Assembly (NCBI RefSeq): GCF_026571515.1
Contig: NW_026852332.1
Coordinates: 310,001 to 374,000 of the forward strand
Direction: 5' to 3'
DNA from: Ruditapes philippinarum
Taxonomy: Eukaryota
DNA length: 64,000 nt
Positions 33,901 to 45,900 of this stretch are shown piece after piece. A program made the position numbers. How positions within the stretch are numbered: position 1 is the stretch's first letter; each line of letters starts with the position of its first letter.

Positions 33901-36900
33901 TGAATAGCAAACAGGGCAGGCCATGGTCAGATGGCATAAATGTGCAAGCTGATCTTGGGTCTGCACTGGATGCTTGGGTAGATTTTGTAGCTGCCAGCAG
34001 GCAAATTACATGAACATCGGTTTATGTTCCTGAAGATAATATTTCAATACTTACAGATAATATATGTGGGTTTTGCAAACCCAGTATAGTTGCATAGGCT
34101 TCAAGATTTTAGAGGAACCCAAGAGTATCTTGAAATTATAGACGAAGCTTTATATAGAAATATTTCATTTCTCAATGGAAAGTTTGCATGTCAGAGGAGC
34201 ATTCTTTATTTGATAACTAATATAAGGGTGCCAGTTTTACTTGAACAGGAATTTGTGACTTACAATTTAGTTCATTTTACATAATATTATCCTTAAGTTT
34301 TTTGAAACTCAATACTGATAGCCATGGGCTTATTTTAGATATTTGGTATGTAGAATTGCCTAGTAGGCGACTATTACAGTTGCATAACTCTTCCCCTTGG
34401 TTTAAAGAATGTCTCAGCCCAAGGTCACTTTTATATTTGACTTGTATTGGAACAGCTTGAGAATTGTCACCAAATGGCTACAACCTGGTATTATTATTGT
34501 AATGTGGACATTCGTAATTTACAAAAGCTCAGAATCCTTATGTTCTGTGTACTTTTGCATTCTCTTTAAATACCGTTTCAGTGTCTAGAAATAGGGGGGC
34601 TTTTTATCGAAAAATGAGAATTCTTTACATTTGTTGATATTTTTCCTTCTTTCTGTATGTAAACCCCCCCCCTGCCTCTGAAAAAATAGGGGGTGGGGCT
34701 CTAAAAATGAGTGAATCCCCCATTCCCCTCCTAGAATAAACACTGCCATTTACGTCACATATAGTTTTATGTGTTGAAAAATAACCTTTCACATATTATA
34801 ATAAGATAATGTTGAACCTCACTTACTTGAATTATAAACCATCTTCTGGTTGAAGATAAGGTATGGATTCATTGTTTAACTTTGATTTGACTTTAGCCAA
34901 ACTTACAAATAAAGAGAGGAATGGTCCTCTAGAAAGCTTGTTTAAACTATGGGCATTGAGTAGTTGTGTATGCTGGTCCTACTGATTGACTTGATTGAAT
35001 GATATCAACTAATGATCTCCATTATAGAAAATATGACCTTTTTGTAATTGTGCTCAGGTGAACGAAATATATAAGACCGATTATAGTTCTTGTATGACAG
35101 TTATTTAACCCTAAAAAACACACAAAAATTATGTACGATTGAATGAAGTTGTAGTTTCTGCACAAAATCTATGAAAAAAACACAAAAAAACAAAAAAACA
35201 CAAAAAAAAACAACAACAAACAAAACAAACTTTTATTTAAACCAACAAAACAACTGGATTTGAGCGTATGTGTCCATGTTTTATTTTTTTACGCACATCT
35301 TTTATTGAGATCTATCTTAAAATTATTTTCCTTTCAGGCAAGAGATTCTTCAAGTGCACACATTGCAAATATAATACACCAATAATCGGAAATATGAAGA
35401 TACATGTACGGAGACACACGGGAGAACGTCCTTTCTCTTGTGACATGTGCATCAAAACGTTCACGTGTGGGGCCACTCTAAAGCTTCATAAGAGAACCAT
35501 TCACTGTGAGGAACGTAGCGAAATCTGTGAATATTGTCACGCCTCTTTCAAAACAAGACAGAATCTCAAGATGCATCAGAAGCGTCATTTTGATATTAAG
35601 AAGCACCTTTGTCCATTTTGTGGCAAAAGAATGGCCAATAAAATGGCTATGGAAGAACATGTGAACACACATACAAAGTCACAGAAGTACATGTGCGGAA
35701 TATGCGACAAAATAGTTTCAAGTGACTCGGCCATGAAGCGGCATATGCTATTACATACCGGTGGAAATGTTAAGTGCCATTTATGTTCGAAAACTTTTGT
35801 TCGGAAAGAAATCTGGAGAAAACATATGATTAATGAACATAAATATAGCGGCAATGAGGACATTTTGGGAAAAAGGCAAAATCAAGTGCAGAAAGTAATA
35901 TAGATGTTTTGAGATTTCTTTGATGAAGCTTTAATCGCATGTGCATTGATGTTGAAATTATTTGAGTATAAGTCTGTACTGTGTTTCGTAATGTGATGGT
36001 AGAAGATAACTAAAGCGGACAGACAATTAGACTTATCGGTTATAATATCAAGAAAAAGCAGTGCTAAACTTAAGGTTCAGACCAGATTTCATCTCCATGG
36101 AAACAGACTTAAGTTCATTCAATTAATTGATGAGATTAATAAATCAATTTAAAAAAAACCTGTTAAACACGTTCATTTGAATGAAAGATTGATCTGTCTT
36201 AGTCATTAAAAAGTGGAAACATTACCATATTAAAGACGTTTACTAAAGTTTTCAAATAAGCAGAACGAAAACTTTGCATGGTCTTTGTAATTGTCTTGGA
36301 TTTTTTTTAGAAATTGTCTTCATTTTTAAGATATCATATTGTAATACAATAAATGGAATATCGTCCAAAATTTAGTTTGATTGGATAGTATTTGTTGTGA
36401 ATGGTGTTGATGAAATACCCTCTTGAAAATATATTGGTAATTTGTAATTGTCTGCTGAAGATAATCCATGAACAATTTTATATATTGTATCTTGTTTACT
36501 TGACATTGTTTAGGTAAATGTGTTTTGTAAAAAGTTCAAATACACAGGAAGCATTCGCTTTGTTGTTTTAATGTAATGATTTTTTTATTTACAGTCAAAT
36601 TTGCTGTGAAAGACCAGTTTTTGAGAAAAATATTTAATGTTGGTGATAGGCCATCTGTGGCCAAATAACCATGTCCTGAAATTGTAACGTGGTCGGCGCT
36701 TCTTTAGAATGTGCTTTGGTGCTCATCTGACTTTGATGTTAACTATTTAAAAAATTTTTTCATAATATCTTTGAAGTATTGAAGATTTTGTGTATTAAAG
36801 AATCAGATTTGGTGTATTTATAGGCATTTCAGTTACACGATGTTGATGTTAATGATTTTCAAAGTTCATTTGGCACAACAGATCTTTTCTTTCCTTCTTC

Positions 36901-42900: not shown

Positions 42901-45900
42901 TCCCCCCTGCCTCTGAAAAAATAGGGGGGGGGGGGGATTCTAAAAAAAATGAGTGAATCCCCCATCCCTCCTAGAATAGACACCAGTGACATTTATGTCA
43001 CATAGTTTTATGTGTGGAAAAATAACCTTTTACATAAGATAATGTTGAACCTCACTCACTTCAATTATTAACAATCTTCTGATTATAGATAAGGTATGGA
43101 CTAACGGTTTAACTTTAATTTGACTAGAAGTGAGGAATGGTCCTCTAGAAGGCTTGTTGAAACTATGGGCAGTCAGTAATTTTGTATGCTGGTCCTACTG
43201 ATTGACGTGATTGAATAATATCAACTAAATTATAAATGATCTTCATCATAGAAAGATCATAGAAAATATGACCTTTTTGTAATTGTGCTCAGGTGAGAAA
43301 TATATAAGACTGATTATAGTTCTTGTATGACAGTTATTTAACCCTAAAAATCCAAAGAAAATTATGTACGATTGAATGAAGTTGAAGTTTCTGCATAATA
43401 TCTATGGAAAAAAAACACACACACAAAAACTTATTAAAATGAACTAGACAACTGAATTTGAGCAAATATTTCCCTGTTTTAACGGATGTCCTTGATTTTT
43501 TACGCACATCTTTTATTCAGGTCCATCTTAAAATTATTTTCCTTTCAGGCGACAGATTCTTCAAGTGCACACATTGCAAATATAATTCACCAAAAATCGG
43601 AAATATGAAGATGCATGTACGGAGACACACGGGAGAACGTCCTTTCTCGTGTGACATGTGCATCAAAGCGTTCACGTGTCGGGCCACTCTAAAGCTTCAT
43701 AAGAGAAGCATCCACTGTGAGGCACGTAGCGAAATCTGTGAATATTGTCACGCCTCTTTCAAAACAAGACAGAATCTCAAGACGCATCAGAAGCGTCATT
43801 TTGATATTAAGAAGCACCTTTGTCCATTTTGTGGCAAGAGAATGGCCAATAAAATGGCTATGAAAGCGCATGTGAACACACATACAAAGTCACAAAAGTA
43901 CATGTGCGGAATATGCGACAAAATGGTTTCAAGTGACTCGGCCATGAAGCGACATATGCTATTACATACCGGTGGAAATGTTAAGTGCCATTTATGTTCG
44001 AAAACTTTTGTTCGGAAAGAAATCTGGAGAAAACATATGATTAATGAGCATAAATATAGCGGCAATGAGGACATTTTGGGAAAAAGGCAAAATCAAGTGC
44101 AGAAAGTAATATAGATGTTTGAGATTTCTTTGATGAATCTTAAATCGCATGTGAATTGATGTTGAAATTAATTTGAGTATAAGTCTGTACTGTGTTTCAT
44201 AATGTGATGGTAGAAGATAACTAATGATGCGGAAAGACAATTAGACTTATCGGTTATAATATCAAAAAAAAAAAAGTGCTACACTTAAGGTTCAGAAGAC
44301 TAGATTACATTTCCATGGAAAAAGACTTAAGTTCATTCAATTAAGTGATGGGATTAATAAATCAATTAAAAAATAAACTGTTAAACACGCTCATTTTAAT
44401 CAAAGATTCATTAAAAAGTGGATACATTACCATATTAAAGACGTTTACTAAAGTTTTCAAATAAGCAGAACGAAAACTTTGCATGGTCTTTGTAATTGTC
44501 TTGGATTTTTTTAGAATTTGTCTTCATTTTTAAGATTTCATATTGTAAAACAATAAATGGAATGTCGTCCAAGATTTAGTTTGATTGGATAGTATTTGTT
44601 GTGAATGGTGTTGATGAAATACCCTCTTGAAAATATATTGGTAATTTGTAATTGTCTGCTGAAGATATTCCATGAACAATTTTATATATTCTATTTTGTT
44701 TACTTGATATTGTTTAGGTAAATGTGTTTTGTAAAAAGTTCAAATACACAGGAAGCATTCGCTTTGTTATGCCCCCGCCATGTAATGGCCGGGGCATATA
44801 GTGTTACCCTGTTCCGTCCTTCCGTCATTCCGTCCTTCCGTCATTCCGTCATTCTGTCATTCCGTCATCATCAGTTTCCGTTCATTATCTTAGTAACGGT
44901 TGCATATATTCAACTCAAACTTGACATATGGATATGTCATTAGAAAATACAGGTCAAGTTCGAATTTGGTCATGTTTCGATGATTTTTTGGCAGAGTTAT
45001 GCCCCTTTTACTTTGAAAATAATATGAAATTTTCAGTTTCCGTTCATTATCTCCCCAACGGTACAACACATTCAACTCAAATTTGACATATGGATATGTC
45101 ATGAGAAAATACAGGTCAAGTTCGAATTTGGTCATGGTTCGATGATTTTTGGCAGAGTTATGCCCCTTTTACTTTGAAAATAATATGAAATTTTCAGTTT
45201 CCGTTCATTATCACCCCAACGGTATAACACATTCAACTCAAATTTGACATTAAATATGTCTTGAGAAAATACAGGTCAAATTTGAATTTGGTCATGGTTC
45301 GATGATTTTTGGCAGAGTTATGCCCCTTTTACTTTGAAAATAATATGAAATTTTCAGTTTCCGTTCATTATCTCCCCAACGGTACAACACATTCAACTCA
45401 AATTTGACATATGGATATGTCATGAGAAAATACAGGTCATGTTTGAATTTGGTCATGGTTCGATGATTTTTTGGCAGAGAAATGCCCTTTTCGCTTTGAA
45501 AATGATATGAAATTTACAGTTTCTGTTCATTGTCTACCCAACAGTGTTACATATTCAACTCAAATTTGACATATGGATATGTCAAAGGAATGGGCAGGTC
45601 AAGTTGGAATTTGGTCATGGTTCGATGATTTTTTGGCAGAGTTATGTCCCTTTCACTTTGAAAATAATATAGATACATCTTCGGAATAAGCAGTTTAAGT
45701 TTGAATTTGGTCGTGGTTCAATGATTTTGGACAAACTTATCTTTCTTGAATATTGGAAAAATTTTGAACTTTCAGTTTCAGCACTCATACTTTTGTTGAA
45801 ATGTATGTAGCCATTATTTTGGCTACAAATATGAAATATGCTATTTTCAAAAGGTTAAGACTGAATAATTTCAGTGCCTTGAACATTGTATGAAAATGGT

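What the first reader, a model, noticed from the sequence alone, without database searches (positions are those of the whole stretch)
35338..44114. Substitutions among the young exons are enriched at base-contacting helix positions
Seen (hand count): C and D differ at 8 amino acids and about 9 purely synonymous codons. Four of the 8 fall on canonical contact positions (finger 1: -1 I/K and +6 I/M; finger 3: +6 M/T; finger 4: +6 E/A), although positions -1/+2/+3/+6 make up only 24 of 188 residues. D vs E adds G/R at +1 of finger 2 and E/K at +5 of finger 4. Finger 6 and the tail are identical in all three. Inference: overall purifying selection (the exons are functional) with rapid retuning of specificity, as in vertebrate KRAB-ZFP/transposon arms races. 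The numbers are small.
Basis: partly seen in the sequence, partly recalled or inferred. Interest (0 to 1): 0.7.

Follow-up and report, generated by a model that had tools for sequence, protein, structure and literature searches.

The report
Duplicated clam zinc-finger exons diverging
Three recently duplicated alternative end-exons of a Manila clam zinc-finger gene are kept intact by selection, and their few amino-acid differences lean towards DNA-reading positions, but only at about the neutral rate, so an arms race is not shown.

Summary
The hand count is correct. Exons C (35338-35903), D (39456-40021) and E (43549-44114) are 566-nt, six-finger C2H2 terminal exons of one Ruditapes philippinarum gene. 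They are three of seven alternative terminal exons spliced to a common 5' coding exon (18847-19645).

C and D differ at 8 replacement and 9 purely synonymous codons. Four of the 8 replacements lie at -1 or +6 of fingers 1, 3 and 4.

Purifying selection is supported. dN/dS is 0.15-0.26 for C-D, and the exons have no indels where about 6 are expected from the flanks.

The contact-site enrichment is only nominal:
- C-D alone gives p=0.010.
- All 12 replacements on the three-exon tree give p=0.05.
- Nulls that allow for constraint or CpG mutation bias give 0.015-0.035 (C-D) and 0.07-0.14 (all 12).
- There is no enrichment against the nearest outside relative found.

Contact codons change at about the flank rate (4/56 against 159/3449). 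Their dN/dS is below 1. This fits relaxed constraint at specificity positions on a conserved scaffold. Adaptive retuning or a transposon arms race is neither shown nor excluded. The pattern is the usual one for young zinc-finger paralogues.

The parts
18847..19645 (+). Common 5' coding exon. It runs from the ATG at 18847 to a phase-1 donor (G|gttagt after 19645). It encodes 266 aa: a conserved N-terminal region, an acidic tract and a basic tail, with no Pfam family.
   Evidence: Searches give the ORF and donor. One search finds 100% identity to the N-termini of R. philippinarum isoforms X5 and X6. One search finds 0 Pfam families. One search shows conservation in 5 relatives.
22972..23630 (+). 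Alternative terminal exon A (five C2H2 fingers). Its acceptor is in the same phase as the others.
26060..26817 (+). Alternative terminal exon B (six fingers and a long tail). This is the isoform type conserved in other species.
   Evidence: Full-length relatives P0104 and P0105 carry a B-like array and keep 18/24 and 16/24 contact residues.
33947..38057 (+). Tandem duplication unit carrying exon C
   Evidence: Self-BLAST and three-way alignment
35338..35903 (+). Exon C: 2 phase bases + 187 codons + TAG, six C2H2 fingers
38058..42159 (+). Tandem unit carrying exon D. It is a mosaic. From about 38452 to 40355 (exon included) it groups with E. From about 41075 to 42159 it groups with C.
39456..40021 (+). 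Exon D. Its translation equals the C-terminal 187 aa of NCBI isoform X5 (P0002).
42160..47522 (+). Tandem unit carrying exon E. It is interrupted at about 44769-46043 by an insertion that holds a 162-bp tandem repeat (44871-45670).
43549..44114 (+). Exon E. It carries all four D-E replacements as derived states relative to C.
47980..48533 (+). Alternative terminal exon F. NCBI isoform X6 (P0001) uses it.
51499..52073 (+). Alternative terminal exon G (six fingers)

Best explanation
What it is. C, D and E are three young tandem copies of one alternative terminal exon in a Manila clam gene. The gene joins a constant 266-aa N-terminal exon to one of seven six-finger (or five-finger) C2H2 arrays by choice of 3' terminal exon.

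History (inferred). An older duplication separated C from the D/E ancestor. A later unequal crossover or conversion between the C-type and E-type units produced the chimeric middle unit D.

Selection. All three exons are held open by purifying selection on the zinc-finger scaffold, on finger 5's recognition helix, and on finger 6 and the tail. The canonical specificity positions, mainly +6 and -1, are weakly constrained. They accumulate replacements at roughly the neutral rate. The few differences therefore look enriched there.

Shown and inferred. Any change of DNA specificity between the isoforms is plausible but inferred. Positive selection is not needed to explain the counts.
For: Gene model.
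- The common exon is 100% identical to R. philippinarum isoforms X5 and X6, which end in exon D and exon F respectively.
- All seven exons have acceptors in the same phase, giving Gly at the junction.
- tblastn finds only these seven arrays and one N-terminal exon in the window.

Duplication.
- The tandem units are about 4.1 kb.
- Exon divergence: C-D 19/566, C-E 20/566, D-E 9/566 nt. Flank divergence: 4.6%, 6.0% and 4.2%.
- Site patterns switch from C-unique to E-unique along unit D.

Constraint.
- dN/dS is 0.15-0.26 for C-D and 0.18-0.27 for D-E.
- There are 0 indels in the exons, against 38, 22 and 47 flank indel events.
- Non-contact replacement rate is 5/402 against flank 159/3449, p=0.0006.

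Neutral-like contact sites.
- Contact replacement rate is 4/56 against the flank, p=0.33. Contact against non-contact is p=0.016.
- Contact dN/dS is 0.35.
- At 10 of the 12 replaced positions, at most one of the 4-5 older paralogues aligned there keeps D's residue.
- 5 of the 8 C-D replacements are conservative I/M or T/S swaps.
Against: - The numbers are tiny: 12 replacements and 11 synonymous changes on the whole tree.
- A true rate above neutral at contact sites cannot be excluded. 3 of the 6 +6 positions are replaced in C-D (post hoc p=0.001).
- The E branch carries 4 replacements to 1 synonymous change, against 0 to 4 on the D branch (Fisher p=0.048). This could mean adaptive change or decay in E.
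- Synonymous divergence for C-D (0.08-0.10) exceeds flank divergence (0.046). The neutral yardstick is therefore itself uncertain.
- Only the finger 1-2 linker looks like the canonical TGE(K/R)P linker (sequence; the consensus is recalled). Canonical base contacts are therefore assumed, not shown.
Confidence: 0.6

Rival explanations
1. Adaptive retuning. After each duplication, positive selection changed base-contacting residues to give each isoform a new target, possibly lineage-specific transposons, as in KRAB-ZFP or FiNZ clusters.
For: - 4 of 8 C-D replacements are at canonical contact positions (p=0.0105) and 3 of the 6 +6 positions are replaced.
- The contact replacement rate is 6 times the non-contact rate (p=0.016).
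- E106A and I15K are radical changes.
- The E branch has 4 replacements to 1 synonymous change.
- The conserved isoform B keeps its contact residues across species (18/24 and 16/24), so the young exons behave differently from it.
- Base-contacting residues under dN/dS>1 are reported for fish FiNZ genes (PMC10547256, passages read).
Against: - Contact-codon dN/dS is 0.35, 0 and 0.55, never above 1.
- The contact replacement rate equals the flank rate (p=0.33).
- Adding the D-E data weakens the enrichment to p=0.05-0.14.
- No replacement is at +2 or +3.
- There is no excess against outgroup P0103.
- Two of the four contact changes sit at CpG sites.
- No repressor domain was recognised.
- No transposon target was examined.
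Confidence: 0.2
2. Chance plus mutation bias. Replacements are spread as mutation and uniform weak constraint dictate. The 4-of-8 count is a post hoc small-sample fluctuation helped by CpG hypermutability.
For: - 6 of 19 C-D differences are at CpG sites, including M78T and E106A.
- With CpG weighting the p-value rises to 0.035 (C-D) and 0.14 (all 12).
- D-E adds 0 of 4 replacements at contact positions.
- Synonymous changes also hit contact codons: 3 in C-D.
Against: - Even the most generous mutation model keeps C-D below 0.05.
- Contact positions are somewhat more variable among the older paralogues too: 0.70 against 0.57 mean variability.
Confidence: 0.15
3. One or more of the copies is not a working exon. 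It may be a recent redundant duplicate on the way to decay (E is the best candidate), or an artefact of assembling divergent haplotypes in tandem.
For: - The E branch has 4 replacements to 1 synonymous change, compatible with dN/dS of about 1.
- Unit E carries a 1.3-kb insertion downstream of the exon.
- Only the exon D isoform was seen by me in the protein database.
Against: - All three copies keep the acceptor, the frame, the stop and every zinc ligand.
- There is no indel in E, against 22 flank indel events for D-E (P(0)=0.028).
- The three units differ structurally and lie in one contiguous sequence without N.
- The 90% cluster of P0002 has 4 member sequences, which may include the C and E isoforms (not verifiable).
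Confidence: 0.05

Closest known systems
Drosophila lola-type loci (also fruitless and mod(mdg4)): a common N-terminal part spliced to alternative C-terminal zinc-finger exons
   Same: One constant 5' coding exon is joined to one of several alternative 3' terminal exons. Each terminal exon encodes its own C2H2 DNA-binding module, giving a family of isoforms from one locus. lola is described as encoding up to twenty isoforms (start of the abstract of bioRxiv 10.1101/132027, seen in the listing).
   Different: The constant part has no BTB domain and no Pfam family at all. Each clam exon carries five or six fingers; that lola exons carry about two is my recollection. The family of the N-terminal region is small, with 9 representatives at E<=0.001. 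The named members are from a clam.
Vertebrate KRAB zinc-finger protein clusters (and fish FiNZ genes)
   Same: Tandem duplication creates young C2H2 arrays whose differences lean towards specificity positions. [quoted passage not shown]
   Different: There is no KRAB domain. What is duplicated is an exon within one transcription unit, not a whole gene. dN/dS at contact codons is below 1. No link to transposons was tested.
Generic lineage-specific C2H2-ZF paralogue divergence (Najafabadi et al. 2017, PMC5588721; I saw only the listing and the start of the abstract)
   Same: Paralogous fingers diverge at both base-contacting and non-base-contacting residues. Here 4 of 12 replacements are at contact positions and 8 of 12 are elsewhere.
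   Different: Only three very young copies are available here, so no binding model could be fitted.

Membership tests
C2H2 zinc-finger arrays (Pfam zf-C2H2, zf-C2H2_4, zf-H2C2_2) | Tandem C-x2-C-x12-H-x3-4-H units that match the Pfam models above their cut-offs | tested here: met
   In one search, exons C, D and E score 58.7-62.2 bits on PF00096 (cut-off 25.2) and 70.4-74.2 bits on PF13894 (cut-off 27). One search finds six C-x2-C-x12-H-x3-4-H units per exon.
KRAB-ZFP | An N-terminal KRAB domain (PF01352) | tested here: not met
   In one search the common 5' exon ORF (18766-19650) matches 0 Pfam families at E<=0.01, and no terminal-exon ORF lists KRAB. Exons upstream of the window cannot be excluded.
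KRAB-ZFP | dN/dS above 1 at base-contacting residues among recent paralogues | tested here: not met
   Contact-codon dN/dS is 0.35 (C-D), 0 (D-E) and 0.55 (C-E). The contact replacement rate against the flank gives p=0.33. Power is very low.
KRAB-ZFP | Binding and repression of transposable elements | not testable with these tools
   No clam transposon library, motif predictor or binding data was available.
lola-like BTB-ZF loci | A BTB/POZ domain in the constant part | tested here: not met
   One search finds no Pfam hit. One search finds no solved-structure relative; the best is E=0.066, to an acidic stretch. One search gives an AlphaFold model with mean pLDDT 46.5, which is unusable. (Atlas) gives no usable hit.
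lola-like BTB-ZF loci | A common 5' exon spliced to alternative 3' terminal exons that encode different zinc-finger modules | tested here: met
   P0002 (isoform X5) and P0001 (isoform X6) share the 266-aa N-terminus and end in exon D and exon F. The donor at 19645 and all seven acceptors are in phase 1. Use of exons A, B, C, E and G is inferred from phase and ORF only.

The most novel reading that the evidence does not exclude
A bivalve locus grows its repertoire of DNA-binding isoforms by birth and death of whole six-finger terminal exons inside one transcription unit. Unequal crossing-over makes new exons, and these are then retuned at -1 and +6 under diversifying selection. This would be an exon-level counterpart of KRAB-ZFP gene clusters, attached to an uncharacterised, mollusc-restricted N-terminal domain.
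Probability: 0.15. Interest if true: 0.6.

Novelty: new member of a known kind. Interest (0 to 1): 0.3.

Why it matters
If the young exons really differ in target specificity, this locus would be a compact natural experiment. Three isoforms would differ by only 4-13 residues on one constant effector part. That would show how a new transcription-factor specificity arises immediately after duplication, in a group (bivalves) where zinc-finger expansions are large but unstudied.

As the evidence stands, the locus shows only the ordinary pattern of young zinc-finger paralogues: a conserved scaffold with weakly constrained specificity positions. The claim of an arms race should not be carried forward without population or binding data.

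Tried and rejected
- More sequences of the young exons. Two protein-database searches with exon D alone gave little. The 'longer' search returned 95 hits, but only P0002, the window's own isoform, was close; the rest were at most 43% identical generic zinc-finger proteins. The 'near' search returned 1 hit, P0103, at 60% identity. No alleles or close orthologues were obtained, so no McDonald-Kreitman or site-model test was possible.\n- Cluster membership of the NCBI isoforms, to see whether C and E isoforms are annotated. The tool answered that its database is switched off. AlphaFold on a 6-sequence alignment gave mean pLDDT 46.5, so I ran no fold search. The Atlas gave no usable hit. A PDB profile search gave only E=0.066 to an acidic stretch.\n- Literature on lola-like zinc-finger exon arrays in bivalves. 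One search found 0 papers. One search found 6 papers and listed 5, none relevant. That this locus type is unpublished for molluscs rests on these two searches only.\n- Searching a joined (spliced) model. Rejected as membership: no KRAB domain, and contact dN/dS below 1.\n- A single conversion tract as the cause of the cluster of D-E differences in finger 2.
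Full report
WHAT IS THERE

The window has about 32% G+C and no N. It comes from the Manila clam, Ruditapes philippinarum. The 266-aa product of 18847-19644 is 100% identical to the N-termini of two NCBI models, 'zinc finger protein 691-like isoform X5' (P0002, 454 aa) and 'zinc finger protein 436-like isoform X6' (P0001, 450 aa). It is not a human contig.

The 5' coding exon ends at a phase-1 donor (G|gttagt after 19645). Downstream on the same strand lie seven ORFs with C2H2 arrays. 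Each is entered through an acceptor in the same phase, so the junction codon is always Gly:
- A starts at 22972
- B at 26060
- C at 35338
- D at 39456
- E at 43549
- F at 47980
- G at 51499

P0002 ends in exon D letter for letter (100% identity over 100% of the query). P0001 ends in exon F. The locus is therefore annotated as one gene with alternative 3' terminal exons. I searched the gene exon by exon (5' exon; exon D). I did not search a joined model.

THE OBSERVATION

C, D and E are each 566 nt: 2 phase bases, 187 codons and TAG. Each holds six C-x2-C-x12-H-x3-4-H fingers.

C and D differ at 19 nt and 17 codons. Eight are replacements: K1D, T13S, I15K, I21M, T53S, M78T, E106A and I125M. Nine are purely synonymous. 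Codon 106 has an extra silent change. With the first His numbered +7, four of the eight replacements are at canonical specificity positions: finger 1 -1 and +6, finger 3 +6 and finger 4 +6. The class -1/+2/+3/+6 holds 24 of 187 residues.

D and E differ at 9 nt: four replacements and five silent changes. The replacements are T40A, G44R at finger 2 +1, E58A, and E105K at finger 4 +5. Finger 6 and the tail are identical in protein. The hand count is confirmed.

IS IT MORE THAN CHANCE?

P-values for the excess under different nulls:

| Null | 4 of 8 contact (C-D) | 4 of 12 contact (all events) | 6 of 12 in helix -1..+6 |
|---|---|---|---|
| Hypergeometric | 0.0105 | 0.051 | 0.029 |
| Weighted by variability among older paralogues | 0.018 | 0.081 | 0.053 |
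| Leaving out the 26 fully conserved positions | 0.015 | 0.072 | 0.046 |
| Mutation-aware, kappa 1-2, CpG x1-20 | 0.011-0.035 | 0.051-0.14 | not computed |

Six of the 19 C-D differences lie at CpG sites, including M78T and E106A. That is why the mutation-aware null was run. D-E adds no replacement at -1/+2/+3/+6.

The closest outside relative I could find is P0103, a 170-aa ORF from an unnamed record. It is 60% identical over 89% of exon D. Against it, contact positions are no more diverged than the rest: 12 identical and 9 different, against 88 and 60 (odds ratio 0.91, p=1).

The excess is therefore real as counted and nominally significant for one pair. It weakens with every added datum, and the test was chosen after the data were seen.

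SELECTION

Purifying selection on the exons is well supported.
- dN/dS is 0.15-0.26 for C-D, 0.18-0.27 for D-E and 0.41-0.57 for C-E, by NG86, LWL85, YN00 and ML.
- For C-D, 9 replacement against 10 silent changes, where 82% replacement is expected: p=0.0008. The whole tree gives 13 against 11, p=0.002.
- No indel occurs in any exon. The flanks carry 38 (C-D), 22 (D-E) and 47 (C-E) indel events in about 3.4-3.5 kb. The expected numbers in the exon are 6.2, 3.6 and 7.8, giving P(0) of 0.002, 0.028 and 0.0004.

Positive selection is not shown.
- Contact codons have Nd=4 and Sd=3 in C-D, a dN/dS of 0.35.
- Using the flanks as the neutral yardstick (159/3449 = 4.6%), contact replacement sites (4/56 = 7.1%) do not differ (p=0.33).
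- Non-contact replacement sites (5/402 = 1.2%) are far lower (p=0.0006).
- Contact against non-contact gives p=0.016.

Read plainly, the scaffold is constrained and the specificity positions are close to free. Five of the eight C-D replacements are I/M or T/S swaps. At ten of the twelve replaced positions, at most one of the 4-5 older paralogues aligned there has D's residue. Both fit drift at weakly constrained sites.

Power is very low. With 56 contact replacement sites and 5-10% neutral divergence, 3-6 changes are expected under neutrality, and 4 are seen.

HISTORY OF THE COPIES

The exons sit in tandem units of about 4.1 kb: 33947-38057, 38058-42159 and 42160-47522. The last unit carries an insertion with a 162-bp tandem repeat.

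Site patterns change along the unit. From about 38452 to 40355 in D coordinates, which includes the exon, C-unique sites dominate (19, 25, 21, 15 and 16 per segment). D and E are therefore sisters there. From about 41075 to 42159, E-unique sites dominate (6, 15 and 21), so C and D are sisters there.

A middle unit whose 5' part is E-like and whose 3' part is C-like is what one unequal crossover between a C unit and an E unit would give. Gene conversion could give the same pattern. This step is inferred.

With C as reference, the D branch carries 0 replacements and 4 silent changes. The E branch carries 4 and 1 (Fisher p=0.048). E may be less constrained than D, or changing adaptively. The numbers cannot tell which.

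THE GENE AROUND IT

The constant exon has no Pfam family. It has no usable AlphaFold model (pLDDT 46.5), no Atlas neighbour and no solved relative.

Its first ~95 residues and several short motifs are strongly conserved in five relatives from unnamed records. All five end at the same exon boundary.

A profile search of 1.84 billion representatives found only 9 proteins at E<=0.001. Two of them (P0104, P0105) are full-length and carry an array like exon B. In those, contact residues are better kept (18/24 and 16/24 identical) than other positions (97/167 and 87/165).

B therefore looks like the old, conserved isoform. C/D/E, and probably F and G, look like lineage-specific additions.

Finger 6 (RKExWRxH) and the following G-N-E-D tail are shared by six of the seven exons, B to G; in exon A only the RK(D/E) start of the helix is kept and the tail is not. 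This suggests a constant function for the end of the array.

COMPARISON WITH KNOWN SYSTEMS

In architecture the locus works like Drosophila lola-type genes: a constant N-terminal part and alternative zinc-finger terminal exons. It fails the defining BTB test.

It resembles KRAB-ZFP or FiNZ clusters only in showing tandem duplication of finger arrays with variable specificity positions. It has no KRAB domain, the duplicated unit is an exon, and contact dN/dS is below 1.

Base-contacting residues being the most variable positions of metazoan ZNFs, and enriched for dN/dS>1 in zebrafish FiNZ clades, is in print (PMC10547256; passages read).

My searches for lola-like zinc-finger exon arrays in bivalves found nothing relevant.

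WHAT STAYED OPEN

- Whether C and E are spliced into mRNA (one search was unavailable).
- Whether the three units are fixed or polymorphic, or partly an assembly artefact in a highly heterozygous genome (the heterozygosity is recalled, not tested).
- Whether these fingers dock canonically. Only the finger 1-2 linker resembles TGE(K/R)P; the consensus is recalled.
- Whether the isoforms differ in binding.

VERDICT

The 'rapid retuning / arms race' half is unsupported but not excluded. This is an ordinary pattern in a moderately interesting locus.

Noticed in passing
window 38058-42159 (unit D) compared with 33947-38057 and 42160-47522: Unit D is a mosaic. Its 5' part, including exon D, groups with E. 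Its last ~1.1 kb groups with C. One unequal crossover between a C unit and an E unit, or a conversion, would produce this.
   Followed up: partly
window 39456-40021 vs 43549-44114: The branches are asymmetric. Exon D has 0 replacements and 4 silent changes since its split from E. Exon E has 4 replacements and 1 silent change (Fisher p=0.048). E may be relaxed or changing adaptively.
   Followed up: partly
window 39575-39596 / 43668-43689 (finger 2, codons 40-47): Four of the nine D-E nucleotide differences fall within 22 bases in finger 2. C agrees with D at two of them and with E at the other two. I did not test whether this is a mutation cluster or small conversion tracts.
   Followed up: no
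window 18847-19645: The constant 5' exon encodes a conserved region (about residues 19-95, plus short motifs near residues 142-150, 171-174 and 244-259). It has no Pfam family, no confident fold and only 9 representative relatives at E<=0.001. The five relatives aligned end at the same exon boundary.
   Followed up: partly
window 26060-26817 (exon B): Exon B is the only array type found attached to this N-terminal region in other species (P0104, P0105). Its contact residues are better conserved than the rest of the array, so it is probably the ancestral isoform.
   Followed up: partly
window 35775-35900, 39893-40018, 43986-44111 and the matching ends of exons A, B, F, G: The last finger (RKExWRxH helix) and a following G-N-E-D motif are shared by exons B to G; exon A keeps only the RK(D/E) start of the helix. 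This suggests a constant, non-specificity role for the end of the array.
   Followed up: no
window 35338-35903 vs 39456-40021: 6 of the 19 C-D differences are at CpG sites, although CpG is not depleted in the exons (18-23 observed, 21-23 expected).
   Followed up: partly
window 391-890, 2331-3540, 4985-5452, 5916-6301, 24403-24992, 29783-31261, 32710-33360, 44871-45670, 55082-56147, 60928-63732: The introns and flanks hold many satellite-like tandem repeats, with periods of 23-30, 73, 145, 162-172 and 203 bp. The 162-bp array lies inside the insertion that distinguishes unit E.
   Followed up: no
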